DNA of 64,000 nucleotides from Spirochaetales bacterium (GTDB lineage Bacteria > Spirochaetota > Spirochaetia > JABEVK01): assembly GCA_037142615.1 (NCBI GenBank), contig JBAXAI010000007.1, positions 80,150 to 144,149 of the forward strand, read 5' to 3'. The position numbers and the translations under genes are program-made. The stretch's first letter is position 1. The number at the start of each line of letters is the position of its first letter. Below are positions 5,816 to 57,703 of this stretch, in pieces. A model generated the notes under the pieces. It was not told the origin of the DNA. It saw only the letters and a list, made by a program, of their open reading frames with translations, and searched no databases.

Positions 5816-5887
5816 AGGCACCGAGCGGATTCGAACCGCTGAATGAAGCTTTTGCAGAGCTCTCCCTTACCACTTGGGTACGGCGCC
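5816..5887 (-). tRNA. tRNA-Cys (GCA)
   Basis: GGCGCCGTACCCAAGTGGTAAGGGA-GAGCT-CTGCAAA-AGCTT...GGTTCGAATCC...GGTGCCT; cloverleaf; CCA not encoded. Confidence 0.95.
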
Positions 5888-5896
5888 ATTGGTCGG

Positions 5897-6036
5897 CACC
5901 CGCTTTTCGGACTACTGCGGCGGTTCCGGCCGGCGCCCCCTCCTTCTTCGGTGCTCACGTACCAGCGTACGCTCCGCTCCTCAGCTCGTCGGGGTCTTGT
6001 CCGGATCCGTCCTCGCGACGTCCCAAAACCGGGTGT
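5897..6036. repeat. Long imperfect palindromic (REP/MITE-like) element in the tRNA-Cys leader
   Basis: Ends CACCCGCTTTTCGGAC / GTCCCAAAACCGGGTG pair; inner arms also pair; central GCTCACGTAC-CAGC-GTACGCTCCGC hairpin. Confidence 0.5.
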
Positions 6037-6125
6037 GGTGTTCAGGCCCTTTCCAAGGCCGTCTCACCAGCGAAAGTGAATATACAAAAAACCTCGGGGG
6101 GTGTCCAGCGGGATTGGGAAAATGC

Positions 6126-6731: not shown

Positions 6732-6811
6732 CGTTTCCTCCGCTGGCATTATAGCCGACAGCAGGCCGGTGGTTCTTGACCGGTGGGGGAAGCCCGGCTT
6801 AGGGTGGTGCG

Positions 6812-7399: not shown

Positions 7400-8085
7400 G
7401 CCTCGCGTTTCGAGCTGGCGTGCTGGCGTTGGCCCTCGTGCTGCTTGTGGGAGGGCTCACCGGCGAAACGACCTACCTCCCACTCCCCGTGGCTGGAGCC
7501 GATGGCTTGGGCTTTGGTCCGGCGACGACCGCACTGGCAGGGGTGTTGGTGGGTTTCGTGGTTCCCCAGACCGGTCCCCTGACGTCGATGGCAGGGCTGA
7601 CCGCCACCTTGGGAGCCGACGGCAAACTCTCGGCTTCGCAGGCCGAAGCGTGGAAAGGGAGCGTTCCGACCAGGCCCGTCCGGGTAGAAAAAGCCGGTTA
7701 CGCCGTGGCGGGGCTCCGGGTGCTGCTCACGGTGACCGGGAGGACGGTCCGCACCCGGCAGCTGCAGGTGCTGTGGAAGCCATGGACCGACGGTGCCCTG
7801 GCCACGCCAGCCGTCTGGAGCAAGGTTTGGGGCCAAAGTGCTGGTGACAAAGACATCACCAAGATCGTGGATCTGCGGATTGCCGCCGGCGGCTGGGCTT
7901 CGGGCTGGTACGGCACCACCGAGGGCAAAGACCTGGCCCAGTTTTCGCTGGTTCAGCGTCTGGATGTGGCTCCGGTGACCCAGACGCCGCAGACGGTTCC
8001 AGCGTTGTCCCTGGAGGCTCCAGCTTTGGCGAAACCGACGGCTCCCGTGACCCCCGAGGTACCAGCTGTCAATCTCAAACGATAG
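7396..8085 (+). CDS. Exported hypothetical protein
   Basis: GTG start overlapping the upstream stop; N-terminal hydrophobic signal; Pro/Thr/Ala-rich tail. Confidence 0.55.
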   Translation: MSLAFRAGVLALALVLLVGGLTGETTYLPLPVAGADGLGFGPATTALAGVLVGFVVPQTGPLTSMAGLTATLGADGKLSASQAEAWKGSVPTRPVRVEKAGYAVAGLRVLLTVTGRTVRTRQLQVLWKPWTDGALATPAVWSKVWGQSAGDKDITKIVDLRIAAGGWASGWYGTTEGKDLAQFSLVQRLDVAPVTQTPQTVPALSLEAPALAKPTAPVTPEVPAVNLKR

Positions 8086-44317: not shown

Positions 44318-45100
44318 ATGAGTCTCAACAACCGCCTGTACATGATCCTGTTCCCCAACACGGCCCTGGTGGGCTCGCAGTTGCCCCCCGACGATTTTGG
44401 TCGGCACTTCATCTCGGGCTCGAGCAAATACTACAGCGGAAAGTTGATTTTCGCCGAGATCGATGCCGCCTACCGCCACGAATACTTCAACATCGACGAC
44501 GCGCTGAAAGACATGACTCACGCCGACGGGAGACCGAAGTCGACCAAGTACATTTCGACCTACCGTGTGCTCGAGCATATTGAGTTCAGCGCGATCCTGA
44601 GCCTTTACATCACCACACCCGAAGGCTTCACCCTCCCCCTTGTTCAGGGTAGCTATGAGGCCACCCACCAAAGCGGCCTGATCCGGATCTTTGGCGAGAT
44701 CGCGCCGGTGTCAATGATGGTGCTGTCGGACTATAACTTCCGCGACTTCTCGAAGTTCATCACTAACCCCAAGGGCCACGTGGGAGCCCCCAAGATGTTC
44801 TACACGCAGATCGACCTCGACATCGACGAATTCCTGGCCGATTTTGAGGCCAACCCGCTGATGCAACCGCCCATCCCCGATATTCATCCGTCGGTACTGC
44901 GCGAGTCGGTACTCGATCTGCGCAAGTATGTCGACAAACACACCAAGGGCCTTTCGCTGTCGAACCCGCTGGGCAAGATCAGCTTTCGGCACCTTCGGCA
45001 CGGTTTCATGTTCGCCAGCCAGGAAGAAAACAAGTTCTATCCGCTCCCCGCGCCCAAGGATATCGAGAAGCTGCACTTTCGGTTCTGGAAGACCATGTAA
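44318..45100 (+). CDS. Hypothetical cytoplasmic protein
   Basis: Long ORF with host-like codon usage and RBS; only 2 nt before the first cyclase gene; no function recognised. Confidence 0.8.
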   Translation: MSLNNRLYMILFPNTALVGSQLPPDDFGRHFISGSSKYYSGKLIFAEIDAAYRHEYFNIDDALKDMTHADGRPKSTKYISTYRVLEHIEFSAILSLYITTPEGFTLPLVQGSYEATHQSGLIRIFGEIAPVSMMVLSDYNFRDFSKFITNPKGHVGAPKMFYTQIDLDIDEFLADFEANPLMQPPIPDIHPSVLRESVLDLRKYVDKHTKGLSLSNPLGKISFRHLRHGFMFASQEENKFYPLPAPKDIEKLHFRFWKTM

Positions 45101-45102
45101 CT

Positions 45103-47811
45103 ATGCCGGAGCGCCGCGTAACGCGACTGTTATCGGCTGCGCTGGCCTCCGTTGCACTCCTTGCGGGTGTATGGGTGGCCTATCATTCCTCCGATTTGAA
45201 GTCGCCGCCTTGGCGTGACCGGCTGCCGCTTTTCTTTCCGTTCTACACGGCTGTTGACCAGTCGGGACGCGCGTACACGTCGGACTCAGCGACCAGCCGC
45301 CTGGTGGCCCTCGACCGAGACGGAAGCCTGAGGTGGACGCTCGACGGCCGCAAATACTCGGGCGGATTCTACAACGCTGTCGGGCTTGCCATCGACAGCC
45401 ACGACGACCTTTACGTCACCAATTGGTTGCCAATGGTGGCGCAGAATGCCCTGGCCCAGGAACTGCAAATCCAGCGCTACAATTCATTGGGTCAGCTCAT
45501 GGGCACCGTTTATCGCCTGGAAAACACGAGCCACAGCGAAGACTTTCCGGGGTACTTCTCGTTCACCATTCAAAAAGACGTTTTGTACATACTGCATGGG
45601 GACGGAACCCGCTACGACCTGTTTCAGGTTCCCGCAGCAGGGGGAACCCCAACTCTTGTGCGCACGGTCAACGCCCCGACAGACTTTGTGTCAATTGCGA
45701 ATACACCGGACGGAACTCTGGCGGGAGCAGCGCGCAACGGCACCCTGTGGAGGGCGGCGCCGGGTCAAGACTGGAAACTCAGCCCGGTGCCTGGAGTCGC
45801 GAAGCCCTGGGATCTGAAGTTCCACCCTGACGGCAGTCTGCTTGTCTTGGACCTCCTGGGCGGAACGATCAAGAAGTTAGGTCTCGATGGAAGCCTCGAG
45901 ATCGTTCTCGACAGCAAGCAGACGGGGGGAACTTTTTCCGACACATTCTCGCTGGCGCCTAACGGGACGCTCGTCATCGCGGACAAAGAACGGCAGCGCC
46001 TCCTCGTAAGCCCGTTTGCGCGCGAATATCGGGCCTACGAAGGGGCCTCGCTCAACTCGGGCACCGTAGCCGGCCATTGGGTAACCTACGTCAGTCTGGT
46101 CGTCGGCTCGCTTTGCGCGCTTGCGGCGCTCGTGTTGTTTTATCTGTTCGTCGTCAAACGCCGTGTTCCGTTGATGGTGATCCAAGTCGGCCTCTTTGTG
46201 CCCATTATTATCGCCGCCCAGGCCATCACTTTCGGACAAGTCTACGACGGCCTGTATTCCCGCTACAAAGCCGAGGTGCGCAACACGCTGCTCAACGCGG
46301 CCCAACTCGTGGCCCGAACCCTCAGTCCGCAAGACCTGCTCGCGCTCAAGAACCCCGCTGATCTGGACTCAGAGGCCTACCAGCGATTGAAGAAGGCCGT
46401 GCTGTCGCTGCGGACCACCGGGCGCGAAACCGGGGCCTTTTCGTACATCGCCTTGTACCGTAACCTGGGCGGCCACGTGCACATCGTGCTCACGGGTTCG
46501 GGGGTTTACGGCGTCAATTATCCGTACCCGATTTTCCCAGCACAGGCGATGGGCCTGTTCAGCGCACCCGGGGTGCAGACGGCCGACTACTCGGACGACT
46601 ACGGCGAGTATTCTGGGGGTTTTGCGAGCGTCGCCGGGCCCGCGGGTTCCCCGGTAGGCGTCGTCGAGGTGGGTCTGTACGCCGACTTGGTGAAGGAGGT
46701 CGAAAACTCCTATTTCGCCAGCGCCCGGTTGTTCTCGGCGGTCAGCGGTGGCATTTTCGTCGTGATTCTGTTCATCATCACCCTGCTCTTGATCCGTTCG
46801 CTCAATACCCTTCGCCGCATCACCCGCGACATTGCCCTGCGAAACATCGAACTGCCGACGGAACTCAAGAGCCACGACGGGATCGGGCAGTTGGGGGGCG
46901 ACTTTGGCACCATGCCCCGCAAGCTCAAGGGCTACTTCGACGAAATCACGGCGCATGCCGCGACGAGCGCGCGTTTTGTGCCGCGCGACTTCATCAACCT
47001 GCTCGAGGTGGAAGACCTCACCAAGGTGAAGGCGGGCAATCATGCCAACCGCGAAATGACGGTCCTGTTCAGCAGCATCGTCAACTTCCGCAAGATTACG
47101 GGCTCTATGTCGAGCCAGGGCGTCGTGAACTACCTGAACGCCTACCTCGCCAGAGTGGCCCCGCACATCCGCGACAACCGGGGTTTCGTCGACAAGTACT
47201 TCGGTGGCACGTACCTAGCCCTGTTCCCGCGCACGCCTCGCGACGCACTGACCACTTTCAAGCTGGTGAATCGCCATTTGGCCAACCAAAATCGGCAACG
47301 GGTGCGCTCGGGCAGCGGGGGCCTGTTCCTGAGTTTTGGCATCCACAAAGCCCCCCTGATGCTCGGAATCGTCGGCGAGGAGCAGCGCTTGGAGGGCACG
47401 GTAGTCAGCGATGCAGTCAATCTGACCAGGCACCTCAACGACTGGTGCCGCCTGTACCACGTTCCGTGCCTGGCCACCTTTCAGACTTTGGAGCAAGCGG
47501 GCGCTTTCCCTTTCCGCAAGATCGACCATGTGATTGTCAAAGGAAGAAGTGAGCCCCTACTGATCTGCGAGCCCCTCGATGAGCTGGATCCGGAGAAGGC
47601 TGTACTGATGGACTATCTCAAGGCCTACGACGAAGCCTTTTCCGCCTTCGAAAAGGGTGACCTGAAGACGGCCTCTGACGGCTTCGAGTTCCTCAAGGCG
47701 CGGGCCCCGAAGGACACCGTGATTCAGCAGCACGCGGCCCGTTGCCGTCAGATCCTCGAAACCGGTAGGCCCGAGGTGTGGAACCCGGCTGTCCAGTTCC
47801 ACGAGAAGTAA
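45103..47811 (+). CDS. Membrane class III nucleotide cyclase-like protein (NHL-type propeller, sensor, HAMP, cyclase lacking metal-binding Asp residues)
   Basis: NHL-type repeats (GLAIDSHDDLYV); 4 TMs; HAMP; cyclase TVLFSSI / VDKYFGGT / TVVSDAVNL / VKGR; helical C-tail. Confidence 0.88.
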   Translation: MPERRVTRLLSAALASVALLAGVWVAYHSSDLKSPPWRDRLPLFFPFYTAVDQSGRAYTSDSATSRLVALDRDGSLRWTLDGRKYSGGFYNAVGLAIDSHDDLYVTNWLPMVAQNALAQELQIQRYNSLGQLMGTVYRLENTSHSEDFPGYFSFTIQKDVLYILHGDGTRYDLFQVPAAGGTPTLVRTVNAPTDFVSIANTPDGTLAGAARNGTLWRAAPGQDWKLSPVPGVAKPWDLKFHPDGSLLVLDLLGGTIKKLGLDGSLEIVLDSKQTGGTFSDTFSLAPNGTLVIADKERQRLLVSPFAREYRAYEGASLNSGTVAGHWVTYVSLVVGSLCALAALVLFYLFVVKRRVPLMVIQVGLFVPIIIAAQAITFGQVYDGLYSRYKAEVRNTLLNAAQLVARTLSPQDLLALKNPADLDSEAYQRLKKAVLSLRTTGRETGAFSYIALYRNLGGHVHIVLTGSGVYGVNYPYPIFPAQAMGLFSAPGVQTADYSDDYGEYSGGFASVAGPAGSPVGVVEVGLYADLVKEVENSYFASARLFSAVSGGIFVVILFIITLLLIRSLNTLRRITRDIALRNIELPTELKSHDGIGQLGGDFGTMPRKLKGYFDEITAHAATSARFVPRDFINLLEVEDLTKVKAGNHANREMTVLFSSIVNFRKITGSMSSQGVVNYLNAYLARVAPHIRDNRGFVDKYFGGTYLALFPRTPRDALTTFKLVNRHLANQNRQRVRSGSGGLFLSFGIHKAPLMLGIVGEEQRLEGTVVSDAVNLTRHLNDWCRLYHVPCLATFQTLEQAGAFPFRKIDHVIVKGRSEPLLICEPLDELDPEKAVLMDYLKAYDEAFSAFEKGDLKTASDGFEFLKARAPKDTVIQQHAARCRQILETGRPEVWNPAVQFHEK

Positions 47812-47821
47812 GGAGCCCGCG

Positions 47822-50383
47822 ATGATCGAGTTCAAGGCCTTTTTGTTGCGTTTTAGTGATGGCCTGCTGTTCCTGCTTCCTGTGGCGGTCGTGACGGGGG
47901 TACTGGCACTCTTGTTTTCGTCGGGCCCTGTTTCGGAGTTCCTCGGGGGCAGCCTGACGACCCCTCGCAACTTTCAGTTTCCGGTCGCGGTCGATTTTGA
48001 CAAGAACGACAACCTGTATGTCATCGACACCAACTCCCGCCGTATTTTGAGCTTCACCCAGGCGAGCAAGGAGCGCTGGGCGCTCGAAGGTGGCAAGCGC
48101 ACCGGCGGCTTTTTTGAGTCGTACCGTTTGGCGGCCAAGCCAGCGGGCGGAGTTCTGGTGTACAACGCCCTCCTTGACCCCGACGACAGCAGCCTCGAGG
48201 CCGAGGAAATCCTGTCCTTCGGTGACGACGGAACGTTGGAAGGTACCCTGGTTCGCTCGTCCTACCCCAAGGAGCAGCGCGGGATCGACAACGAGCGCAT
48301 CGGGGCGTTCCAGGTGCAGGGCGATTCGTTGTGGTACCTGTTCAAAGACCGAGGGCAACTGGTGCTCCGGGAAAGGCCCCTGGCCATGGGAGGCTCCACC
48401 GAACCTTCCGAGCACAGGGCGGTTTTCAGCGTTGCACTGCCACCGACGCTCGATTATGTCACGGCCGTACCTCACCTGCCCGAAGGTCTGGTCCTCACCG
48501 CGAGCACCGGAGAAGTCTACCTTCTGAACTCCGCAGGGCAGCTAAGTGTCCCGCCTTTTGCGTCCAGCGGCGTTTTGCAGAAGCCGTGGGACATCAAAGC
48601 CGCCCCTGACGGCAGCCTGTACTTCCTCGATGTATTGGGCTGTTCGGTGTGGAAAGCGGCTTCGCTCGAGGCCAGTACCCTGGAGCAGGTGTTCGGTCAG
48701 AACGACGTGCTCAAAACCGGGCGCAGCCGGACTTCCTTCGAAAGCGTCGGCGCAGGCCCGTCGGGAACCGTGGGCCTTGTCGACAAGTTTAACCAGTCGG
48801 TGTTCGTCAGGAAGGCCGATGGGACAACGCAGGTAGTTTCGGGCTGGTCGAAGACCGCTTGGGAGCAGATTTGGGACCTCACCTGGCTGGCCGTCGCCTT
48901 TGTTTTTGTAGTCAGCGGTATCTGGACAGTCGTGGGCCTGCTAAGGCGGTTCCTGGCAACCCGAACCTCGATTATTGTGAAGCAAGTCGCGCTCCTGTTG
49001 CCGCTGGTGATCGCGAGCGCCTACATCGGCACGGTGAGCATATTCCAACTGCTCGACGACCTTTACCAGAAAGAACTCAAGACCAAACTGATGTTTATTG
49101 CCACGGTCGGAGCACGGGCCGTGGACGGAAGTCTCGTCGGTGCGATTAACAAGGCCTCGGACTTTCAGCAAGCGGCCCACGTGCAGTTGCAGCAACAGGT
49201 CAATGCCTTGCTCAATTCCCGGGCCGACCCGTGGAACGAAGCCCTCCATTCGGTGGTGTACAAGTACCTGAACGACGAGTTCTACCTCGTGAAGACCTCG
49301 AGCCTTTATTACGGCGTCATGTACCCCTACGGGGGTGCTTCCCGCGAGCACTTTGCAGCCGCTCGAAGCGGAAAGGTGCAGTTCACCCGCCACGCCGACG
49401 AACACGGCGCCTACCTGAGCGCGCTGGCGCCACTCACAGGTAAGGATGGCCTTATTACTGGTCTGCTGGAGATTTACCACAACGACAACACCAGCCGCGA
49501 AATGGCTTACTCGTACAACGAGAACCTATTCAAGGGCATCGTCTTTTCGGTGCTCATGGTGCTTTTGCTGCTCATTGTCAGCGATGTGCTGATCTTCCTG
49601 GCGCTCGGCTACCTGCAGCAGGCCAGCGAAAAGTTGACCCGGGGCAAGTTGGGCATCACAGTCAGGGTTCGCCACCACCAGTTGAGCGGCGATCCGGCTT
49701 TCGAGGTCAGCACGATGAGCCCACGGCAGATGGAATACTTCGGCCTCCTCAAAGAAGTGCGGGATGCGAACGCCCGCTTCCTGCCCAGCGAGTTGCTTGA
49801 TCTTTTGGGCAAGGAGAGCCTGGCCGACGTCGAGATCGGCGACCAGATCAAGCGGAAGGTCACACTGTTCTTTGCGGATATCCGCAACTTCGCTTCTCTT
49901 TCGGACGGGATGACACCAAAAGAAAACTTTGACTTCATCAACTCCTACCTCAGCGTGATCGGATCCGTAATACGCCGAAATGGGGGCTTTATCGAGCACC
50001 ACCTGGGCGACGCCATCATGGCCCTCTTCCCCGAGAAACCCGAAGACGCGGTCAAGGCGGGCCTCGAAATGCGCGAAGTTCTGGCCGGCTTCAACCGGCA
50101 GCGCCAAGAAACCGGGCAAGTTGCCATCACCTTTGGAGTGGGGCTTCACTGCGAGGAAATCCTCCTGGCCGTTGTGGGTGAAGGCGACCGTCTGGCCGCG
50201 ACGATCATTTCGGACGCCGTTGACCTGGTCAACCGACTCGAGGCTGCCACACAGGGCTACCACGCAGGCTTGGTGATGTCGGAACCGGTATGGCGGGCCC
50301 TGCCGGGCGAACTTCGGGCGCAAAGTCCGGCCGTGGGAACCATCGAGTACAACGAGGAAACGCTGGTGGTGCACGGCCTGTAG
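47822..50383 (+). CDS. Membrane class III nucleotide cyclase-like protein (same architecture; has both Asp, lacks K, N and KG)
   Basis: FPVAVDFDKNDNLYVID NHL repeats; TMs; cyclase FFADIRNF / IEHHLGDAIM / SDAVDLVNRLE; no KG motif. Confidence 0.88.
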   Translation: MIEFKAFLLRFSDGLLFLLPVAVVTGVLALLFSSGPVSEFLGGSLTTPRNFQFPVAVDFDKNDNLYVIDTNSRRILSFTQASKERWALEGGKRTGGFFESYRLAAKPAGGVLVYNALLDPDDSSLEAEEILSFGDDGTLEGTLVRSSYPKEQRGIDNERIGAFQVQGDSLWYLFKDRGQLVLRERPLAMGGSTEPSEHRAVFSVALPPTLDYVTAVPHLPEGLVLTASTGEVYLLNSAGQLSVPPFASSGVLQKPWDIKAAPDGSLYFLDVLGCSVWKAASLEASTLEQVFGQNDVLKTGRSRTSFESVGAGPSGTVGLVDKFNQSVFVRKADGTTQVVSGWSKTAWEQIWDLTWLAVAFVFVVSGIWTVVGLLRRFLATRTSIIVKQVALLLPLVIASAYIGTVSIFQLLDDLYQKELKTKLMFIATVGARAVDGSLVGAINKASDFQQAAHVQLQQQVNALLNSRADPWNEALHSVVYKYLNDEFYLVKTSSLYYGVMYPYGGASREHFAAARSGKVQFTRHADEHGAYLSALAPLTGKDGLITGLLEIYHNDNTSREMAYSYNENLFKGIVFSVLMVLLLLIVSDVLIFLALGYLQQASEKLTRGKLGITVRVRHHQLSGDPAFEVSTMSPRQMEYFGLLKEVRDANARFLPSELLDLLGKESLADVEIGDQIKRKVTLFFADIRNFASLSDGMTPKENFDFINSYLSVIGSVIRRNGGFIEHHLGDAIMALFPEKPEDAVKAGLEMREVLAGFNRQRQETGQVAITFGVGLHCEEILLAVVGEGDRLAATIISDAVDLVNRLEAATQGYHAGLVMSEPVWRALPGELRAQSPAVGTIEYNEETLVVHGL

Positions 50384-50467: not shown

Positions 50468-51670
50468 ATGAAACTTGCGCTTTGTTTTATCGCCTTCGCC
50501 GTTGTCTTGGCGTCTTGCGGTCCCTCGACGCCGGTTGCCTCGAGTTCCTCCGCTGGGAATCCCTCCGATGCCGTGGCCTCACCTCGCAACCATCCCGAGG
50601 GCCGCCCATTCCGGGTTGCCGTTGTGCAGAGCGGAGACTATTACTCTTATAACCGCGTGCTCGCCAGCATCCATGGGGGGTTGGCTGATCTGGGTTGGAC
50701 GACAGAGGATTCCTCTCCCCTCGGAGCCAACGGAACCATCCCTCAGATGCTCGCCCGCTGGAAACTGGCGTCCGGGAATGTCGGCTTTGACCCCGCGCTT
50801 TTTGTCGACCTGAAGTTCACGGAGGATTCGACGCTCCCTCCGGCACTGTTGGCGTTGCTCAATGGCTCGAGCGGCGCGGATCTGGTCATTTCACTCGGTA
50901 CCATAGCCGGCAAGTTCTGCGCCCAAGCGGCCAAGGCGGGCGAGCTCAAGGTCCCCGTCTTGATTGAAAGTGTTTCGGACCCCATTGTCTCGGGGATCAT
51001 CACCTCGGTGGAAGACTCGGGTTACGATCTCCTGACGGCTAGCCTTGACCCCGACCAGGACGAACGGCAGGTGAGGTTGTTCCAGCGGGTCATTCAGTTC
51101 AAGCACCTGGGGCTCATTTACACCGACACCGACACAGGCCGAACCTACGCGGCCCTCGCTGTCGTCACCAGGCTGGCCAGCGAACTCGGCTTTGAGATCG
51201 TCGCCGATATGGACGTGCTGGAAGACCCGCCGGACGAGAAAGACATCCCCAAGGCAGAGGCGGCCTTTGTCCAAGCCTTCGAGCGGCTCGCAAAAAAGAA
51301 GGTCGATGCTGTTTATCTCGCTATTCAGGCAGGATTAACTTCCAAGTCGATGCCGGCGATCGCCGCCCTGTCGGAACAGTATAAGATTCCGACCTTTGCC
51401 ATGGAGGGCGTTGACTTTGTCCGCCTGGGTGCGCTGATGGGTGAGTCGGGCGATTTGCTGACCCTGGAAGGCCTCAATAGTGCGCGCAAACTCACCCGCG
51501 TTCTGGCCGGGGCGATACCGCGGTCTTTGCCGCAGGCCAATCCCCACCTGCCGCACGTCATTCTCAACCAGGCGACGGCCAAAGCCATAGGCTTTGCTTT
51601 TCCAGTGGACATGTTGCTGGCCGCAGACGAGGTAATTACCCAAAACCAACCCCGCAGGAAGGCACCCTGA
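50468..51670 (+). CDS. ABC-type substrate-binding lipoprotein (ABC_sub_bind-like)
   Basis: Lipobox LAS-C; ADLVISLGT, VSDPIVSGII, KIPTF, LNQATAKAIG; no permease or ATPase nearby. Confidence 0.85.
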   Translation: MKLALCFIAFAVVLASCGPSTPVASSSSAGNPSDAVASPRNHPEGRPFRVAVVQSGDYYSYNRVLASIHGGLADLGWTTEDSSPLGANGTIPQMLARWKLASGNVGFDPALFVDLKFTEDSTLPPALLALLNGSSGADLVISLGTIAGKFCAQAAKAGELKVPVLIESVSDPIVSGIITSVEDSGYDLLTASLDPDQDERQVRLFQRVIQFKHLGLIYTDTDTGRTYAALAVVTRLASELGFEIVADMDVLEDPPDEKDIPKAEAAFVQAFERLAKKKVDAVYLAIQAGLTSKSMPAIAALSEQYKIPTFAMEGVDFVRLGALMGESGDLLTLEGLNSARKLTRVLAGAIPRSLPQANPHLPHVILNQATAKAIGFAFPVDMLLAADEVITQNQPRRKAP

Positions 51671-51778: not shown

Positions 51779-52285
51779 TTGGAAAAGCACAGCAAAGGTT
51801 TGAAGATCGAAGTCGGCCTGAACGCCGGCGATTTCCTCTTGGAGTGGAAGCGCAGCGCCCTTGTCGCCAACTACTTGGCAGACTTCATGGCCTACGAATA
51901 CCCGCACCGTGAGATGGCCGAAAACCTGATTTCAACCGTGCTCAACGAGCTTATCGAGGCTGCCTACCGTCTGGCCGTCGATCGAAGTCCTCTGCAGCTT
52001 TTGCTCCGAACCGAAGACGGGCATCTGATTATCGCCTTGGACCATCAGTGTCAGCCCGGACTGTCGAGCACCTACCGGGAGTTCGTTGGACAGTTGGTTC
52101 AAGGTTCGGACGGTCCCTTGTACTTTCAGTTGCTCGAGGCCGAAACCCGCCCGGAACCGTTGTTCAATCAATTTGGCTTAGCGATGATCGCGCACGATTT
52201 TTCCGGGCAGATTACGGTCGAGGATCTTGGAACCACCCAGCTACGCACCACCATCGATTTGCCCACAAAGGAACTCTCCGCATGA
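51779..52285 (+). CDS. Degenerate SiaB/Slr1658-like GHKL (anti-sigma-type) kinase homologue
   Basis: Paralogous to 55785-56363 (W.R....A.F...ISTVLNELIE...GL..I..DF) but with N-box Asn and Gly-rich lid missing; TTG start after GGAGG. Confidence 0.65.
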   Translation: MEKHSKGLKIEVGLNAGDFLLEWKRSALVANYLADFMAYEYPHREMAENLISTVLNELIEAAYRLAVDRSPLQLLLRTEDGHLIIALDHQCQPGLSSTYREFVGQLVQGSDGPLYFQLLEAETRPEPLFNQFGLAMIAHDFSGQITVEDLGTTQLRTTIDLPTKELSA

Positions 52286-53466
52286 AACTCAAGTCCGGTT
52301 CCTGCACGCTCACCTTTGACCTTCTTGATCAACAGATCGATTTCGAGGGTACGTTCCGGCCCGAATCCGCCGCCGACGCGAAGGACGTTTTCGAATACCT
52401 GACCAAGAAGCATGGGCAAGTCCGCGGCGTGTTCCGCCTCAACTTCCGCCGCCTTCGCTACATCAACGCCGAGGGCGTCTATGCGCTCGCCCGCTTCATC
52501 CGCCACGCGAAGGAAGCAACCGAGGCCCAGCGTAGGTCTGGCTCCATCCAACTCATCGCCTCGGCGGTGTTGGCTTGGACCGAGCACGTCTTGCCCAACC
52601 TGACCAGACTCTGGGACAAAGTTGAGTTTCAGGTGCACGACCGTAACTTCTACGGTAGTCAGGGTCTGATCGAGGACCTGGAGTTCATCCCGTTGCTCCG
52701 TAACCAGACCCGCATCCTGTGGCCCCTCGAAAAAGAGGTCCTCCGCCGTCATGGGCTTGAACGAGGCATGCGGGTTGCCGACGTTTGCTGTGGTTGCGGC
52801 GATGTTCCCTTGCTGGTGGCCCGGGAGTTTCACCCGAGTTTCATTACGGGTATCGACCATTCGGAAGCTGCCATGGTCTACGCTCGCCAACTTCAAGACG
52901 ATTTTGGCGTGTCCAACGCCGAGTTTCAGCGGGGCGACGCGACGGCGCTCATGCTTGCCGACGACAGTTTCGACTTTGTGACTTGCCGACTGAGCCTCCA
53001 AATCTTCTCGAAGCCCGAGCAGATCCTGAGCGAGCTGATCCGAATCACCAAGCCCGGCGGCCGTATTTACACGCTGTGTGAGGACTACGACCTGATCGTC
53101 GGCTACCCTGAAAGGAACTCCATCCGCCACACCTACGAGAAGGCAACCGAGTACGGCGAAGCCCTGGGCATGGACCTGATCAGCGGCAAGAAACTCTACG
53201 GCATGTTGACCCGCGCCCGCCTGGAAGACGTCCGCGCCGAGCACATCATGGTCGACACCGCCAATACCTCCCGCCCCGACTTTGCCAAGGTGATCGAGAG
53301 CTGGCGTCAATTCTCGGCCTTCAGCATTGGCGATCAACTGAAGCTAGGCGACGAGGACCGCGCTCGGCTCCTCGAAGGCTACGACGCACAACTGCGCACG
53401 ATTGCCGATCCCGAGGGCTACACGACTTGGAACATGGTCGCATGCTCGGGCAGGAAACCCCTATGA
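52282..53466 (+). CDS. STAS-like (SiaC/Slr1659-like) domain fused to a class I SAM-dependent methyltransferase
   Basis: N-terminal FEGTFR...LNFRRLRYINAEG...W...LPNLTRLW parallels 56368-56730; C-terminal VADVCCGCG, GIDHS, GDA, SFDFV, KPGG. Confidence 0.85.
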   Translation: MKLKSGSCTLTFDLLDQQIDFEGTFRPESAADAKDVFEYLTKKHGQVRGVFRLNFRRLRYINAEGVYALARFIRHAKEATEAQRRSGSIQLIASAVLAWTEHVLPNLTRLWDKVEFQVHDRNFYGSQGLIEDLEFIPLLRNQTRILWPLEKEVLRRHGLERGMRVADVCCGCGDVPLLVAREFHPSFITGIDHSEAAMVYARQLQDDFGVSNAEFQRGDATALMLADDSFDFVTCRLSLQIFSKPEQILSELIRITKPGGRIYTLCEDYDLIVGYPERNSIRHTYEKATEYGEALGMDLISGKKLYGMLTRARLEDVRAEHIMVDTANTSRPDFAKVIESWRQFSAFSIGDQLKLGDEDRARLLEGYDAQLRTIADPEGYTTWNMVACSGRKPL

Positions 53467-55781
53467 ACAAGTTTTTCAGCCCCATCGCGCGGAGCTTCCG
53501 GCGCAAGCTCATCCTGTTCAATCTGGTGGCTGTCTTCTTCACCGCCATCGCTCTGTTTTCGTACATGATGCTGAACTTCAGCACCATCACGCAGTTCTCG
53601 CTGGCACAAAACAGCCAAAGCATGGAGTCGACTGTCGAAGACTACCTCCAGAAGCTCACCCGCGAGAAGGCGGAATCGACCGGTCTGGCCCTTCAGGCCG
53701 CACAGGACAACTTGACCGTCGTGGGCAAGATGGCCCAAAGCCTGATCGACAACGGCGAGGCTCTGAGGGCCAACCGTGCGCTGCTCGATCTTCCCCTTTT
53801 CGCCACCCCCCTCGAAAGCCGTCACGGTGCCTTGACCAGTCGGGCCACCGACGCTGTCGATACCCTTATTCCGCCGGCGCTGGTCGCCGACCCTGCCGCG
53901 CGTCGAGCCCTCGAAACATCGGCTTTGCTGAATCTGGGACTCAAGCCGGCCTTCGAGGCCAATCGGAACAACGCGTTCCTGTACTTCGTGGGCGTGCCCC
54001 CGGTAACCCGCGCCTACCCGAACATTGACCTTGCCGAAGTGATGGGTGAGGGACTTAACGCCTTGTTCTGGAAGGACTTCTTTGCCGAAAACGTGGCCCA
54101 TTGGACGCGGTGGTATACCGATAAGGCCCTGCAAAAGACGAGCCCCAACCCGGTTACCATGGAGTCACCCTACATCGACGCCGCCGGACAGGGCATGATG
54201 GTCACGATGTTCTATCCCTTGTGGGACGCCAAGAAGAAGGCCTTTGCCGGTGCCGTGGCCGCAGACATCACGCTGTCCAAAATCATCGAGAATACCCTGT
54301 CGATCAAACTGGCCAAGACGGGCTTTGCCTTCCTGATGAATGGTCAGGGCAACATCATCGCCATGCCCGAAAACGGTTACAAGCACTACCAGGTCAATCT
54401 GACCGAAACCAAGCAGGGCTCGTTGTCTTACTACTCGGGGTCCCTGTCCGACTCCAAGTTGGATTCCGTGAAGAAGATGGCTGAAACGCTGCTGATCGGT
54501 CGAACCCAGGAGCAAGGACTGCTCAAGCTCGACTTGGATGGTGATCCGGCAACACCAGACGGCAACATTGTTGTTTGGGCCAACCTTCCTGCCCTGAACG
54601 ACCGGGCTTACGGCCAGGATTCGTGGAAGATTCTGATCAGCGTTCCCGAGACCGAAATCTTTGAAGCGCTCAACGCCACGCATCAGGCCATCAGCCAGGA
54701 AAGCCTGAGCATGTCGTTGATTTCCATCCTGATCCTTGTGGCCTTCCTGATTCTCATCAGCTACGTTTCCTTCAAGGTGGCTGACCGGACGACGCGCGAC
54801 CTTCAACTGCTCGCCGAAGCGGCCAAGCAGGTGAGCGTCAAGAACTATGACATCAGCACCAATCTGACGTCGCTGGACGAGATCGGGCAACTCGGCCGGG
54901 TTTTTGACGGCATGACGCGCGATATCAAGGACTATACCATCCATCTGGAATCCAAGGTGGAAGAGCGTACCGCTGACCTGGTGAAAGCCAACGAGCAGAT
55001 CACCGAGCTTAACGCCCGGCTCAAGGGCGAGAACCTTCGACTGGGTGCCGAACTCGACGTTGCCAGGCGCTTGCAGATGATGGTGCTTCCCGGGGCTGGC
55101 GAGATTTCCTCGATCCCGGGGCTTGATATTGCCTGCTACATGCGGCCGGCCGACGAAGTGGGGGGCGACTACTACGATATCCTGCGCTTCGGTGACACGG
55201 CCTTCATTGGTATCGGCGACGTGACAGGCCACGGACTGTCAGCGGGCGTCATCATGCTGATGGCGCAGACTGCCTTGATGACGCTGTCGCACTCGGGTGA
55301 GACAGATATCTCCCAGATCATGAACGTGCTCAACCGCGTGCTCTACAACAACATCCTGCGAATCCGGGAAGACAAGAACATGACTCTTTCGGTACTTCAG
55401 TACCGAAACGACGTGTTTACTGTTGTTGGTCAGCACGAGTCGGTTCTGGTCTGCCGCGTCGATGGAAGCGTCGAAGAGGTGAATACGATGGATCTGGGCC
55501 TACCGGTAGGCCTGGAAGAAGACATCCGATCGTTTATTGGCACCGAGCAGATCACGCTCCGCAAAGGCGATACCATGGTTCTTTACACCGACGGTGTCAC
55601 CGAAGCTGTGAACCGCTCTGAGGTGCAGTACAGCCTCGAGGGCCTCAAGGTCAGCCTTGCCAGGCACCACAGTTTGCCAGCGGCCGAACAGCTCGACCGG
55701 ATCAACGCCGATTTGGTCGCCTACATCGACGGCTCGAAAATCCACGACGACATTTCGGTCGTGGTGATCAAGAAGGAGTGA
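53463..55781 (+). CDS. Membrane PP2C/SpoIIE-type phosphatase with Cache-like sensor and HAMP
   Basis: 2 TMs; SPYIDAAGQG Cache motif; DEIGQLG HAMP; EVGGDYYD, IGDVTGHG, LYTDGVTEA, DDIS. Confidence 0.93.
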   Translation: MNKFFSPIARSFRRKLILFNLVAVFFTAIALFSYMMLNFSTITQFSLAQNSQSMESTVEDYLQKLTREKAESTGLALQAAQDNLTVVGKMAQSLIDNGEALRANRALLDLPLFATPLESRHGALTSRATDAVDTLIPPALVADPAARRALETSALLNLGLKPAFEANRNNAFLYFVGVPPVTRAYPNIDLAEVMGEGLNALFWKDFFAENVAHWTRWYTDKALQKTSPNPVTMESPYIDAAGQGMMVTMFYPLWDAKKKAFAGAVAADITLSKIIENTLSIKLAKTGFAFLMNGQGNIIAMPENGYKHYQVNLTETKQGSLSYYSGSLSDSKLDSVKKMAETLLIGRTQEQGLLKLDLDGDPATPDGNIVVWANLPALNDRAYGQDSWKILISVPETEIFEALNATHQAISQESLSMSLISILILVAFLILISYVSFKVADRTTRDLQLLAEAAKQVSVKNYDISTNLTSLDEIGQLGRVFDGMTRDIKDYTIHLESKVEERTADLVKANEQITELNARLKGENLRLGAELDVARRLQMMVLPGAGEISSIPGLDIACYMRPADEVGGDYYDILRFGDTAFIGIGDVTGHGLSAGVIMLMAQTALMTLSHSGETDISQIMNVLNRVLYNNILRIREDKNMTLSVLQYRNDVFTVVGQHESVLVCRVDGSVEEVNTMDLGLPVGLEEDIRSFIGTEQITLRKGDTMVLYTDGVTEAVNRSEVQYSLEGLKVSLARHHSLPAAEQLDRINADLVAYIDGSKIHDDISVVVIKKE

Positions 55782-55784
55782 GTC

Positions 55785-56363
55785 TTGACTGAATCTTCCA
55801 AGCAGTACGGCGAGTTCACGGGCTCCGATCAGCTTGCCCTTGGCGTCCACAGAAGCCTGAGGCTGGATGCCTCGGACCTCAAAGCCTTTTGGCGGCGGTG
55901 CAGCATGACCGCTGACTTTTGGTCTCGTTATGGGAGCCTTTCGGTCCCGTCCCGGCCTTCGAGCGGCTGGCTGAACCGGGATGCGGCCTTTCAAGTGATT
56001 GCGTATCTGCTCAACGAACTGTTTGAGAACTGTGCCAAGTTCACCGCCGGCCCGCTGACCGGAGTCTTGTTCGACGTCTGGGAGCTAGAAGACCGAATTG
56101 TGTACCGCGTGAGCAACCACATCCGACCCAATGATGTACAAGCGTTCGTTAACGTGGTAAAAGAAATGTTGGACGGCGACCTTGAAGAGCTCTATTTCAA
56201 AAAACTCGAAGAGAACGCGGAGTCTGGTGAAGGTGGCTCTGGCTTGGGTTATCTCACGCTGATGAAAGACTATGGCGTCCGGTTTGGCTTCGCCTTCGAG
56301 CCGTTGAATGCCGAGAGCGTTCTGGTCCATGTTCAGGCGTTGGTGAGCAAGAAGGAGATTTGA
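55785..56363 (+). CDS. SiaB/Slr1658-like GHKL serine kinase (anti-sigma-factor type)
   Basis: N-box LLNELFENCAKF and G-box GGSGLGYLTLMKDY; between a PP2C phosphatase and a STAS-like gene. Confidence 0.8.
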   Translation: MTESSKQYGEFTGSDQLALGVHRSLRLDASDLKAFWRRCSMTADFWSRYGSLSVPSRPSSGWLNRDAAFQVIAYLLNELFENCAKFTAGPLTGVLFDVWELEDRIVYRVSNHIRPNDVQAFVNVVKEMLDGDLEELYFKKLEENAESGEGGSGLGYLTLMKDYGVRFGFAFEPLNAESVLVHVQALVSKKEI

Positions 56364-56367
56364 GAGC

Positions 56368-56730
56368 ATGTCTACCGAAGTCATTAAGGGCGACGACTAC
56401 AGCGTCGAGTATCATCCTACTACCTCGCAGCTTTTTTTCCGGGGGACAATCCGTCTACAGACCACCGAGGACTATGTTCCCGTGATGGAGCTGATGCAGA
56501 AAGCTCACGCCGGCTGCGCCGAAGGTGGTACCAATCTCATCATGGACTTCAGCCACCTCGAGTTTCTTAACAGCTCGGGCATCAATGCCATCAGCAAGTT
56601 CGTGATCGCGACTCGCAAAGAGGCCAAAATCTGTATTGACGTCCTCGGAAACAAGGATATTTACTGGCAGCAAAAGTCACTGCAGAACCTCCAGAAGCTC
56701 TGGGCCAAAGTCACCATCACCATAAGCTGA
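56368..56730 (+). CDS. STAS-like phosphoacceptor (SiaC/Slr1659-like)
   Basis: MDFSHLEFLNSSGINAISKF matches the STAS/anti-anti-sigma phosphoserine loop; WQQKSLQNLQKL. Confidence 0.85.
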   Translation: MSTEVIKGDDYSVEYHPTTSQLFFRGTIRLQTTEDYVPVMELMQKAHAGCAEGGTNLIMDFSHLEFLNSSGINAISKFVIATRKEAKICIDVLGNKDIYWQQKSLQNLQKLWAKVTITIS

Positions 56731-56740
56731 GGAGGACCCC

Positions 56741-57703
56741 ATCGACAGCAATCCTGACGACCAGAAACGTCTAGAGGACCTTCAAGCCGAACTGTCTGAC
56801 CTTCAGATGCTCTACGAGAACAATCTTGACCACAGCTCCTCGCTCGAAAACGAGCTGATCGACAAGAACCGGGCCATGGAAGAACTCCGAGACAAGATGA
56901 AGAAGTACCTGTCGCCGCAGTTGTACCAGGCTTTGCTGGGAGGCACGACATCGGCCGATACCCACGTGCACTCACGCAAGAAACTGGTCATCTACTTCTC
57001 TGATGTCGTCGGCTTCTCCGACCTAACCGACACGATTGAACCCGAGCTCCTGTCCGATATTCTCAATTCCTACCTGACCCGTATGTCCGAGATCGCACTC
57101 AAGTATGGCGGCACGGTGGATAAGTTCATCGGAGACGCCGTCATGGTGTTTTTTGGTGATCCGGAAGCCACCGACGACACCACGCACGTGCGTCAATGCG
57201 TGGGCATGGCACTCGAAATGCGCGAGCAGCTGTTTGTGCTTCGTGAAGCCTGGAGAACAAAAGGTATTGACCGGACCATTCAAGTTCGGGCGGGCATCAA
57301 CATCGGCTACTGCACGGTGGGCAATTTTGGCAGTGACTACCGCATGGACTACACCATCATCGGGGGCCAGGTAAACACGGCGGCGCGCCTTCAGTCTGCG
57401 GCAAAACCCGACAGCATCTACATTTCGGCTGCCGCATCGTCCCTGGTGGAGGATTTTGCCGAACTTCGGTTCGTCGGTCCGCTCAGTCTCAAAGGCATTC
57501 ACACCCCGGTCGAAGTGTTCGAGGTTCTCCGGCTCAAACAGTCCCACGAAGAGGTGGGTCGGCCTTCACTGGCTCAACTCCACGGGCGGAGGCTTCGCAT
57601 CAGCAGCATCGATCTCGATTTGGCCGACGCGAGCGATGAAGAGATCCACGACCTACAGCGGGCCCTCAGTCAGGTTCTGGTCGGACTCAGCACGCGCAAA
57701 TGA
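56741..57703 (+). CDS. Soluble class III adenylate cyclase with N-terminal coiled coil (start ATC 56741 or ATG 56807)
   Basis: All catalytic residues present: FSDVVGF, DKFIGDA, YTIIGGQVNTAARL, LKG. Confidence 0.9.
   Translation: MDSNPDDQKRLEDLQAELSDLQMLYENNLDHSSSLENELIDKNRAMEELRDKMKKYLSPQLYQALLGGTTSADTHVHSRKKLVIYFSDVVGFSDLTDTIEPELLSDILNSYLTRMSEIALKYGGTVDKFIGDAVMVFFGDPEATDDTTHVRQCVGMALEMREQLFVLREAWRTKGIDRTIQVRAGINIGYCTVGNFGSDYRMDYTIIGGQVNTAARLQSAAKPDSIYISAAASSLVEDFAELRFVGPLSLKGIHTPVEVFEVLRLKQSHEEVGRPSLAQLHGRRLRISSIDLDLADASDEEIHDLQRALSQVLVGLSTRK

What the first reader, a model, noticed from the sequence alone, without database searches (positions are those of the whole stretch)
45103..50383. 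Two adjacent cyclase paralogues with complementary active-site losses: candidate obligate heterodimeric bacterial adenylate cyclase
Seen: the genes are 10 bp apart and share the architecture TM-NHL propeller-2TM-sensor-TM-HAMP-class III cyclase. Gene A (45103-47811) has lost both metal-binding Asp: FSD becomes FSS (~47071-47076) and GD becomes GG (YFGGT). It keeps the adenine-specifying Lys (VDK, 47194), Thr (GTVV), transition-state Asn (47419) and the KG lysine (47539). Gene B (47822-50383) keeps both Asp (49877, 50009) but has K->H (EHH), N->D (AVDL) and no KG motif. The intact cyclase at 56.8 kb is an internal reference with all residues. Established: class III cyclases form active sites across a dimer interface. 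One half gives the two Asp (C1 of mammalian AC, alpha subunit of soluble GC) and the other gives K, T/D, N and R (C2, beta subunit). Most characterised bacterial enzymes are homodimers carrying both sets. Inference: neither homodimer is active, but an A-B heterodimer would rebuild one ATP-specific site, which could act as an AND gate over two different extracytoplasmic sensors. Caveat: gene A's catalytic Arg is not at N+4 (NLTRH), so activity may be weak or depend on the shifted Arg.
Basis: partly seen in the sequence, partly recalled or inferred. Interest (0 to 1): 0.85.

Follow-up and report, generated by a model that had tools for sequence, protein, structure and literature searches.

The report
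Split two-gene bacterial adenylate cyclase
Two neighbouring sensor-cyclase genes of an uncultured freshwater spirochaete have each lost the half of the catalytic machinery that the other keeps, so they probably work only as a mixed pair, the design known from animal adenylate and guanylate cyclases.

Summary
Gene A (45103-47811) lacks both metal-binding Asp (S658, G702). It keeps Lys698, Thr766, Asn773 and Lys813, with Arg one residue out of register. Gene B (47822-50383) keeps Asp686 and Asp730 but has His726, Asp801 and no terminal Lys.

Comparative evidence supports a C2-like/C1-like heterodimer with one composite ATP site:
- A-type and B-type genes are adjacent, A first, in every locus I could read.
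- They form two sister clades that arose from an intact 926-aa receptor cyclase.
- The cleanest pairs are exactly reciprocal and under strong purifying selection (dN/dS 0.02-0.13 in the cyclase domains).
- Each partner preserves the half-domain that lines the shared site and has diverged in the other half.
- A complex prediction passes (0.73; best control 0.02), which shows likeness to solved cyclase dimers only.
- A second, independently evolved complementary pair (X/Y) lies on another contig of the same genome.

Caveats: the window's pair belongs to the more eroded sub-lineage. Its closest orthologues in a sister genome are dead on both sides. Its Arg is displaced and its HAMP motifs are eroded. 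Activity is untested. I rate it a new variant of a known kind, of moderately high interest.

The parts
44318..45100 (+). 260-aa ORF of unknown function. It ends 2 bp before gene A and is probably the first gene of the operon.
   Evidence: ORF. No Pfam or NCBIfam hit, and the Atlas search gave nothing usable. It is 78.5% identical to the ORF directly upstream of the A1 gene in G002. No counterpart was found upstream of the Ja pair.
45103..47811 (+). Gene A, 902 aa. This is the C2-like subunit: it lacks both metal Asp and keeps Lys, Thr, Asn and the terminal Lys.
45190..46077 (+). A, first periplasmic module with NHL repeats (residues about 30-325), between TM1 (45127-45183) and TM2.
   Evidence: Pfam NHL 32.1 bits against a cut-off of 20. 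TM scan.
46228..46737 (+). A, second periplasmic domain (residues 376-545) with a PAS/PDC (single-Cache-like) fold. It lies between TM3 (ends 46227) and TM4 (46738-46794).
   Evidence: AlphaFold2 model with mean pLDDT 84.1 from a 10-row alignment. The best Foldseek PDB matches are the CitA/DcuS sensor domains, E 1.4e-5, TM (target) 0.75-0.79.
46795..47037 (+). A, HAMP-like linker and the conserved ...SARFVP... transducer helix leading into the cyclase domain.
   Evidence: Aligns without gaps to orthologues whose HAMP passes the Pfam cut-off. In A itself the motif is eroded (HDGIGQLGGDFGTMP) and Pfam reports no HAMP at E 0.01.
47038..47592 (+). A, class III cyclase domain. Key residues are S658 (47074), K698 (47194), G702 (47206), T766 (47398), N773 (47419), R776 (47428; H777 sits at N+4) and K813 (47539).
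   Evidence: PF00211 28.9 bits. Alignment to 1wc0, E 3.6e-13. Residue table and numbering.
47593..47808 (+). A, C-terminal extension of about 70 aa that B lacks. It aligns with the region that is TPR-positive in protein Y.
   Evidence: Alignments. TPR_2 hit, 32.4 bits, in the equivalent tail of protein Y.
47812..47821 (+). 10-bp A-B spacer with a GGAG ribosome-binding site.
   Evidence: Sequence read. A contig of run X2 and one of X3 bridge the junction.
47822..50383 (+). Gene B, 853 aa. This is the C1-like subunit: it keeps both metal Asp and lacks the Lys, the Asn and the terminal Lys.
49028..49549 (+). B, second periplasmic (PDC-like) domain, residues 403-576.
   Evidence: Aligned with A's domain in alignment A5, 22% identity. 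The fold is inferred from the model of A's domain.
49841..50380 (+). B, class III cyclase domain. Key residues are D686 (49877), H726 (49997), D730 (50009), T794 (50201), D801 (50222) and R805 (50234). The last strand reads IEYNEE, with no Lys.
   Evidence: PF00211 31.9 bits. Alignment to 2w01, E 6e-17..
50468..51670 (+). Periplasmic solute-binding protein (ABC_sub_bind family) downstream of B. It is a possible ligand-presenting partner of the sensors; this is inference.
   Evidence: PF04392 50.7 bits. Homologues lie near the cyclase genes in G002, the Ja locus and G007, 34-55% identity.
56807..57703 (+). Intact soluble class III cyclase used as the internal reference. It is not part of the pair.
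   Evidence: PF00211 87 bits. E 1.7e-61 to 3r5g CyaB. All seven catalytic residues present.

Best explanation
A and B are the two subunits of a heterodimeric membrane class III cyclase.

Origin. An intact, homodimeric receptor cyclase (NHL module / PDC sensor / HAMP / cyclase / TPR-like tail) was duplicated in tandem. The two copies then lost complementary halves of the active site.

How it would work. In the head-to-tail cyclase dimer, B gives the two metal-binding Asp (D686, D730). This is the C1 / sGC-alpha role. A gives the adenine-binding Lys698 and Thr766, the ribose and transition-state Asn773 (with Arg776 one residue out of register) and the phosphate-binding Lys813. This is the C2 / sGC-beta role. 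That rebuilds one ATP-type site. The symmetry-related site (A S658/G702 with B H726/T794/D801/R805) is dead, and might serve as a regulatory pocket. The product would be cAMP. Both genes are co-translated from one operon, and each brings its own divergent periplasmic sensor pair.

What is shown: the residue pattern, the adjacency, the phylogeny, the purifying selection in sister pairs, and the reciprocal conservation of half-domains.

What is inferred: that the proteins heterodimerise, that the site turns over ATP, and that two signals are integrated.

The window's pair is the more eroded of two sub-lineages, so its activity may be low or lost. The confidence given here (0.6) is for this particular pair; for the A/B family as a whole I hold about 0.75.
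For: 1. Residues. Of 11 A-type rows, 11 lack Asp1, 10 keep the Lys, 10 keep the Asn, 9 keep the Thr, 7 keep Arg at N+4 and 8 keep the terminal Lys. Of 12 B-type rows, 9 keep Asp1 and 9 keep Asp2. None of the 12 has the Lys (4 His, 8 Arg), the Asn (9 Asp, 2 Glu, 1 Gln) or the terminal Lys. Several rows are near-duplicates of each other.

2. Adjacency. An A-type gene lies directly upstream of a B-type gene in the window, twice in G002 (A1-B1-A2-B2), in the Ja locus L017 and in metagenome loci L096, L097 and L098. These are all seven loci with DNA context. L096 to L098 are 92-99% identical to G002 or Ja.

3. Tree. The A clade (9 rows) and the B clade (10 rows) each have support 100*. They group with the intact 926-aa proteins of G001 and G007 and an intact own-genome cyclase (support 85). 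The sub-clade structures run in parallel.

4. Selection. dN/dS in the cyclase regions is 0.065 (A2) and 0.023 (B2) for G002 against L097. It is 0.134 (A) and 0.116 (B) for Ja against L098.

5. Half-domain asymmetry. In the half that holds Asp1/Lys/Asp2, A keeps the outgroup residue in 0.47 of row-columns and B in 0.68. In the arm/helix half that holds Thr/Asn/Arg, A keeps 0.70 and B 0.51. Columns lost in every row number 19 and 7 for A against 9 and 12 for B (Fisher p 0.043).

6. The window's own domains are not drifting freely. A's cyclase domain is 54-56% identical to the clean A2/Ja domains but 50% to its dead A1 orthologues. Its propeller shows the reverse, 61-64% to A1 and 40-48% to A2/Ja.

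7. Complex prediction for A 612-835 with B 637-853. The score is 0.73 and the best of 3 controls 0.02. That mark was reached by 58 of 80 solved complexes and 2 of 110 mismatched pairs. The runs agree in at least 89% of contacts, and the partner's pLDDT is at least 84. Class III cyclase dimers are solved structures, so this pass shows likeness, not binding.

8. Independent replicate. A second overlapping pair, X/Y, on contig C4 has the patterns D K D T E L D and H K D T N R K. The patterns are identical in G002. Five more distant genomes carry single homologues with all seven residues. X/Y shows the same half-domain asymmetry (p 0.026).

9. Cyclic-nucleotide context. The own genome has 17 cNMP_binding matches over the cut-off. 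In the Ja locus a 952-aa protein with two cNMP_binding stretches follows the pair.
Against: - No biochemical data exist.
- The closest orthologues of the window's pair are dead on both sides. G002 A1 reads T K E A N - -. G002 B1 reads K H E N E Q with an 11-residue HAMP deletion. P0012 and P0008 are similar. The A1/B1 sub-lineage therefore tolerates loss of catalysis while the proteins stay intact.
- In A the Arg sits at N+3, not N+4.
- A's and B's HAMP motifs are eroded relative to their relatives and fail the Pfam threshold.
- dN/dS for A1/B1 (0.30 and 0.48) rests on dS of only 0.013-0.019 and says nothing.
- No dN/dS could be computed for the window's own pair. The nearest relative, P0005, has no DNA on hand.
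- In the wider receptor family a 31-row clade has 29 members without either Asp and mostly without Arg or the terminal Lys. Non-catalytic cyclase domains are therefore common in this architecture.
- The complex predictor cannot tell an A-B dimer from A-A or B-B. Only one job was allowed.
- The half-domain statistics treat columns as independent and use few lineages.
Confidence: 0.6

Rival explanations
1. In this genome A and B are pseudo-cyclases. They still sense and dimerise but no longer make a cyclic nucleotide. They would act as scaffolds, as nucleotide-binding regulators, or through their periplasmic modules.
For: The nearest orthologous pair (G002 A1/B1) and P0012/P0008 have lost residues on both sides yet remain full-length open frames. 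A has Arg out of register and eroded HAMP motifs. In the wider family 29 of 31 rows of one clade lack both Asp.
Against: Among A1/B1 members, the window's pair is the one that keeps the complementary set: both Asp in B, and Lys, Thr, Asn and the terminal Lys in A. Its cyclase domains stay closer to the clean A2/B2 domains than the dead ones do. G002 carries a second, clean pair that could explain relaxed constraint on its A1/B1. No second pair was found in the window's genome, which is 96.7% complete.
Confidence: 0.27
2. B is active on its own as a homodimer with unusual substrate residues (His for Lys, Asp for Asn), and A is a non-catalytic regulatory partner or decoy.
For: B keeps both Asp, the Thr and an Arg at +4. 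From my own recall, some mycobacterial cyclases work with non-canonical substrate-specifying residues. No call checked this.
Against: All 12 B-type rows lack the Asn and the terminal Lys, and 8 of 12 have Arg rather than His at the Lys position. A self-sufficient enzyme would be expected to retain these. B's arm/helix half is its diverged half.
Confidence: 0.06
3. A or B pairs with one of the 20 or so intact cyclases of the genome rather than with each other, giving half-active mixed dimers.
For: The genome holds 29 PF00211 matches. An intact cyclase on contig C54 is the closest own-genome relative of the A/B clade.
Against: A and B are always adjacent and share linker lengths. Their sub-trees run in parallel. 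The intact relatives lack the same membrane and sensor architecture, for example 667 aa for the C54 frame.
Confidence: 0.05
4. The complementary pattern is chance or an assembly artefact.
For: None found.
Against: The pattern recurs in several lineages and in a second independent pair. Independent metagenome contigs reproduce the sequence without indels.
Confidence: 0.01

Closest known systems
Mammalian membrane adenylyl cyclase C1/C2 catalytic core (e.g. PDB 1azs, 1cjk)
   Same: One half supplies the two metal Asp. The other supplies Lys, the second specificity residue, Asn, Arg and Lys. That gives one active site and one degenerate, regulatory (forskolin) site. B's domain hits the VC1 chains weakly (E 0.0026). 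The division of labour is described in the passages I read of PMC8815786.
   Different: There the two halves lie in one polypeptide of a eukaryote and are regulated by G proteins. Here they are two separate bacterial genes, each with its own periplasmic sensors. The Thr marks a bacterial or sAC-like subtype; the subtype name is from my recall.
Soluble guanylyl cyclase alpha/beta heterodimer
   Same: Two separately encoded paralogous subunits form an obligate heterodimer with one active site.
   Different: It is eukaryotic, GTP-specific, has H-NOX/PAS sensors and is cytosolic. Which subunit supplies which residues is from my recall, not from a call.
Homodimeric bacterial class III cyclases: CyaC of Spirulina (1wc0), Cya2 (2w01), CyaB of P. 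aeruginosa (3r5g)
   Same: These are the best sequence matches among solved structures: A to 1wc0 at E 3.6e-13, B to 2w01 at E 6e-17. They share the fold and the Lys/Thr signature.
   Different: Each of those chains carries the full residue set and forms two symmetric sites. Reviews state that bacterial class III cyclases homodimerise (passages of PMC9552081 and of PMC4886424).
Chytrid rhodopsin-guanylyl-cyclase / neorhodopsin heterodimers
   Same: Two sensor-cyclase fusion proteins with different sensors are active only together (passages of PMC8815786).
   Different: They are eukaryotic. According to the passages read, RGC1 and RGC2 keep all catalytic residues, so heterodimerisation there is not forced by complementary loss.
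Single-chain tandem-domain cyclases (soluble adenylyl cyclase ADCY10, 4clf) and the 1283-aa two-domain frame on contig C16 of this genome
   Same: A C1-like and a C2-like domain share one site. The C16 frame reads D G D A A L - and G Q D S N R K.
   Different: Both domains are in one chain, with no membrane sensors.

Membership tests
Class III nucleotide cyclase (Pfam PF00211) | Catalytic-domain profile match above the curated cut-off | tested here: met
   A scores 28.9 bits and B 31.9 bits against a cut-off of 21.9. PDB matches E 3.6e-13 and 6e-17.
Class III nucleotide cyclase (catalytically self-sufficient homodimer) | Two metal-binding Asp in the same chain as the substrate and transition-state residues | tested here: not met
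   A has Ser and Gly at the two Asp positions. B has the Asp but His, Asp and no Lys at the Lys, Asn and terminal-Lys positions.
Class III nucleotide cyclase | Transition-state Asn with Arg four residues later | tested here: inconclusive
   A reads N773 L T R776 H777, so Arg is at +3. B reads D801...R805. The clean A2 and Ja proteins read N L T/A S R.
Class III nucleotide cyclase | Cyclase activity (cAMP or cGMP formation) | not testable with these tools
Heterodimeric class III cyclases of C1/C2 (alpha/beta) type | Complementary distribution of catalytic residues between two different domains | tested here: met
   for the window's pair and for the G002 A2/B2 and Ja pairs. Half-domain asymmetry.
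Heterodimeric class III cyclases of C1/C2 (alpha/beta) type | Physical heterodimer with a head-to-tail interface | tested here: inconclusive
   The prediction scores 0.73 against a best control of 0.02. This may reflect likeness to solved dimers. Homodimers were not modelled.
Heterodimeric class III cyclases of C1/C2 (alpha/beta) type | Activity only when both subunits are present | not testable with these tools
   Needs co-expression assays.
Adenylate-specific subtype with Lys/Thr (class IIIb; the name is recalled) | Lys and Thr at the two base-specifying positions of the subunit that binds the base | tested here: met
   A has K698 and T766, as does the reference cyclase and 1wc0 in the alignment. 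The rule that Lys/Thr means ATP is established knowledge that I recall; it was not tested.
HAMP-linked receptor cyclases | HAMP domain between the last TM and the cyclase domain | tested here: inconclusive
   No HAMP at E 0.01 in A or B. HAMP scores 33-44 bits against a cut-off of 25 in the Ja and G002 A2/B2 orthologues at the aligned position.
PAS/PDC (Cache-like) extracytoplasmic sensor domains | PDC fold between two TM helices | tested here: met
   Model pLDDT 84.1. Foldseek match to CitA/DcuS sensors, E 1.4e-5. Both are predicted, not solved, and there was no Pfam hit.

The most novel reading that the evidence does not exclude
This spirochaete genus has at least twice independently re-invented the C1/C2 design of animal cyclases as two-gene obligate heterodimers: the membrane pair A/B and the CheA-linked soluble pair X/Y. 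In the A/B family the dead second site has not simply decayed but has been rebuilt as an allosteric pocket. The B-specific Lys-to-Arg/His and Asn-to-Asp changes are fixed under purifying selection. This would parallel the forskolin site of membrane cyclases or the bicarbonate site of soluble cyclase. One enzyme would then integrate two different periplasmic sensor sets and a cytoplasmic ligand.
Probability: 0.2. Interest if true: 0.85.

Novelty: new variant of a known kind. Interest (0 to 1): 0.68.

Why it matters
Reviews describe bacterial class III cyclases as homodimers with two identical sites (passages of PMC9552081, and of PMC4886424). Heterodimers with one active and one regulatory site are treated as a feature of eukaryotes (passages of PMC8815786).

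A natural two-gene bacterial heterodimer would give a simple, genetically tractable model of how the C1/C2 and alpha/beta division of labour evolves. This is especially so for one with intact ancestors, clean pairs and decayed pairs all available in sister genomes.

It would also show a way for bacteria to wire two different extracellular sensors into one second-messenger output.

Eight literature searches returned no paper describing such a bacterial pair.

Tried and rejected
- Sequencing runs: no RNA holder is listed for the stretch, so nothing can be said about expression or co-transcription.
- Contigs of four DNA runs were laid. They only confirm the sequence.
- Scans of genome contigs and metagenome contigs with B found only close relatives of G002 and of the Ja genome. 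They added no new lineages with context.
- The two word-based protein searches gave 7 B-type and 6 A-type proteins.
- The exhaustive HMMER search added P0016, P0026 (a fragment), P0041 and P0092.
- A class-wide genome search with a member of the Asp-less clade (P0067) found no close relative in 151 genomes. The best match was 33-39% identical. Whether those proteins are also paired stays open.
- The 260-aa upstream ORF gave nothing in Pfam, NCBIfam or the Atlas.
- A compensated frameshift as the cause of B's odd HAMP motif was checked and rejected.
- dN/dS for G002 A1/B1 against L096 is uninformative, with dS 0.013-0.019.
- The paper PMC2447327 is held only as a 20-kb stub, so its mention of 'heterodimeric' could not be read.
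Full report
**What is there**

The window is contig C7:80150-144149 of a 4.27-Mb assembly that is 96.7% complete. Record titles of its nearest relatives name uncultured Spirochaetales/Spirochaetes genomes. The stretch recurs in contigs of freshwater and lake metagenome runs.

Gene A (45103-47811, 902 aa) and gene B (47822-50383, 853 aa) lie 10 bp apart, with a GGAG 7 nt before B's ATG. A 260-aa ORF of unknown function ends 2 bp before A. A solute-binding protein of the PF04392 family follows B.

Both proteins have four hydrophobic segments, NHL repeats in the first periplasmic stretch and a class III cyclase domain at the C-terminus. The second periplasmic stretch of A (residues 376-545) folds with pLDDT 84 into a PAS/PDC sensor. 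Its best PDB matches are the CitA/DcuS sensor domains, E 1.4e-5. HAMP is the exception: it is recognisable in A and B only by alignment to orthologues in which Pfam finds it.

**The residues**

The cyclase at 56807-57703 is a close relative of P. aeruginosa CyaB (3r5g, E 1.7e-61) and carries all seven catalytic residues. Against it and against 1wc0/2w01:

| Position | Reference | A | B |
|---|---|---|---|
| Metal Asp 1 | D | S658 | D686 |
| Adenine Lys | K | K698 | H726 |
| Metal Asp 2 | D | G702 | D730 |
| Specificity Thr | T | T766 | T794 |
| Asn | N | N773 | D801 |
| Arg at N+4 | R | H777 (Arg at 776) | R805 |
| Terminal Lys | K | K813 | none |

Every coordinate in the finding checks out.

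In the same genome 16 of 29 cyclase-domain matches have all seven residues. Five more differ only at the last Lys or by an alignment gap. The pattern is therefore unusual against its own background.

Independent metagenome contigs reproduce both domains and the junction. They show no indel and no variant in a key codon.

**Relatives**

I read A-type and B-type genes in three genomes and three metagenome contigs. A sister genome, G002, has four genes in tandem (A1-B1-A2-B2). A third genome, Ja (L017), has one pair. L096, L097 and L098 are 92-99% identical copies of these. In all seven loci the A-type gene is immediately upstream of a B-type gene.

Protein searches added A-type P0012, P0013 and P0014 and B-type P0005, P0007, P0008 and P0009, without genomic context. 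The exhaustive search shows the A/B clade is small, a handful of 50% clusters. It sits inside a large family of about 900-aa proteins with the same architecture.

In a tree of cyclase domains A (9 rows) and B (10 rows) are each monophyletic (100*). They sit with the intact 926-aa proteins of G001 and G007. A and B therefore arose by duplication of an intact enzyme. The A and B sub-trees match:
- A1 {window, G002_1, P0012} corresponds to B1 {window, P0005, G002_2, P0008}.
- A2 {G002_3, P0013, P0014} corresponds to B2 {G002_4, P0007, P0009}.
- The Ja pair stands apart.

**Is the loss reciprocal?**

In the A2, B2 and Ja lineages it is exactly so.
- A-type proteins lack only Asp1 (Ser or Thr). Asp2 is Asp or Glu. 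They keep Lys, Thr, Asn, Arg at N+4 and the terminal Lys.
- B-type proteins keep both Asp. They have Arg for Lys and Asp for Asn, a variable residue at the Arg position, and no terminal Lys.

Over all rows, 11 of 11 A-type lack Asp1. Of the 12 B-type rows, none has the Lys, the Asn or the terminal Lys.

Selection is strongly purifying on both cyclase domains wherever divergence allows a measurement. dN/dS is 0.065 and 0.023 for A2 and B2, and 0.134 and 0.116 for the Ja pair.

The reciprocity extends beyond the seven residues. Relative to the intact outgroups, A has diverged mainly in the half that holds the Asp positions. B has diverged mainly in the arm/helix half that holds Thr/Asn/Arg. In the Asp half A keeps the outgroup residue in 0.47 of row-columns and B in 0.68. 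In the arm/helix half A keeps 0.70 and B 0.51 (Fisher p 0.043).

In a head-to-tail cyclase dimer (established geometry), A's diverged half and B's diverged half face each other around the dead site. The two conserved halves build the live one.

**The window's own pair**

It belongs to the A1/B1 sub-lineage, which is the eroded one. G002's A1/B1, P0012 and P0008 have lost residues on both sides. The dead B1 proteins carry an 11-residue deletion in HAMP.

The window's A and B keep the complementary set, with three blemishes: the displaced Arg, Gly at Asp2 (harmless in a heterodimer) and eroded HAMP motifs. These motifs were not caused by a frameshift.

Their cyclase domains remain closer to the clean A2/B2 domains than to the dead orthologues, although the sensors show the opposite. 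This fits continued constraint. No second pair was found in this genome. In G002 the clean A2/B2 pair could have released A1/B1 from constraint.

I therefore hold the family-level claim at about 0.75. The claim that this particular pair is catalytically active I hold at about 0.6.

**Modelling**

A 612-835 with B 637-853 gives a score of 0.73, with the best of three controls at 0.02. That mark was reached by 58 of 80 solved complexes and 2 of 110 mismatched pairs. The runs agree in at least 89% of contacts, and the partner's pLDDT is at least 84. The interface is the canonical one.

Cyclase dimers are well represented among solved structures, so this shows likeness only. Homodimers could not be compared.

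**A second, independent case**

On contig C4, genes X (515 aa) and Y (583 aa) overlap by ATGA and follow a CheA-like kinase.
- X reads D K D T E L D. It has both Asp and lacks the Asn, the Arg and the terminal Lys.
- Y reads H K D T N R K. It lacks only Asp1.

G002 has the same pair with the same residues. Five more distant genomes have a single homologue with all seven. In the tree X and Y do not group with A or B, so the origin is separate.

X/Y shows the same half-domain asymmetry (p 0.026). As in A/B, the C1-like partner has lost the TPR-like tail that the C2-like partner keeps.

The genome also has a single-chain two-domain cyclase with the same split.

**Context for a cyclic-nucleotide output**

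The genome has 17 cNMP-binding-domain matches over the cut-off. A protein with two such domains sits directly after the Ja pair.

**Comparison with what is known**

The design is that of the mammalian C1/C2 core and of soluble guanylyl cyclase. Reviews in the library describe bacterial class III cyclases as homodimers (PMC9552081 and PMC4886424; passages read). They place heterodimers in higher eukaryotes (PMC8815786; passages read).

Eight searches returned no paper on a bacterial two-gene complementary pair. The main subscription reviews on cyclases are not in the library and supplements were closed, so I cannot rule out a prior mention.

I rate it a new variant of a known kind.

**Limits**

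- Nothing here measures binding or catalysis.
- The lineages are few and related.
- The statistics on alignment columns are rough.
- Non-catalytic cyclase domains are common in the wider receptor family: 29 of 31 rows of one clade lack both Asp.
- That last point keeps the pseudo-enzyme reading alive for the window's pair.

Noticed in passing
L103 (G000:C4:44000-54000) 4368-5915 and 5912-7663, + strand: Second adjacent complementary cyclase pair. X (515 aa) reads D K D T E L D. Y (583 aa, with a TPR tail) reads H K D T N R K. The genes overlap by ATGA and lie downstream of a CheA-like kinase (HATPase_c, CheW, Response_reg). G002 has the pair with identical residues. Five more distant genomes have single intact homologues. 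The origin is independent of A/B in the tree.
   Followed up: yes
G000:C16:48349-49530, - strand (locus L104): A 1283-aa frame holds two cyclase domains in one chain. The N-terminal one reads D G D A A L - (C1-like) and the C-terminal one G Q D S N R K (C2-like). This is a soluble-adenylyl-cyclase-like pseudoheterodimer.
   Followed up: no
Proteins P0053-P0153 (no genomic context): The wider family has the same NHL / PDC / HAMP / cyclase architecture (84 full-length rows). A starred 31-row clade in it has 29 members lacking both metal Asp, most also lacking Arg and the terminal Lys. It may be a large group of pseudo-cyclase receptors. A class-wide genome search found no close relative, so pairing could not be checked.
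   Followed up: partly
window 44318-45100, + strand: A 260-aa ORF with no family hit ends 2 bp before gene A. It is 78.5% identical to the ORF upstream of G002 A1, so it is better conserved than A or B themselves.
   Followed up: partly
window 50468-51670, + strand; L013 2-994 (-); L017 12651-13955; L015 589-1797: A PF04392 solute-binding protein recurs next to the cyclase genes, both the split and the intact forms. It may present a ligand to the periplasmic sensors.
   Followed up: partly
L017 8684-11542, + strand: A 952-aa protein with two cNMP-binding domains lies directly after the A/B pair of the Ja genome.
   Followed up: partly
L014 2107-5088 and L015 1898-4930, + strand: In G001 and G007 the intact 926-aa cyclase is preceded by a protein of about 1000 aa. 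It shares the periplasmic module but ends in an MFS transporter domain (MFS_1, 94 bits) instead of a cyclase.
   Followed up: no
window 51779-57703, + strand: A partner-switching-like cluster lies beside the reference cyclase. It holds an slr1658-superfamily regulator (51779-52285), a dCache-HAMP-SpoIIE phosphatase (53427-55781), a DUF6272-like protein (55785-56363) and a STAS protein (56368-56730). The intact cyclase follows.
   Followed up: no
G000:C18:32326-34055, + strand: Two adjacent, nearly identical intact cyclases (428-aa and 513-aa frames; tree branch lengths 0.13 each). This looks like a recent tandem duplication of the kind from which split pairs could arise.
   Followed up: no
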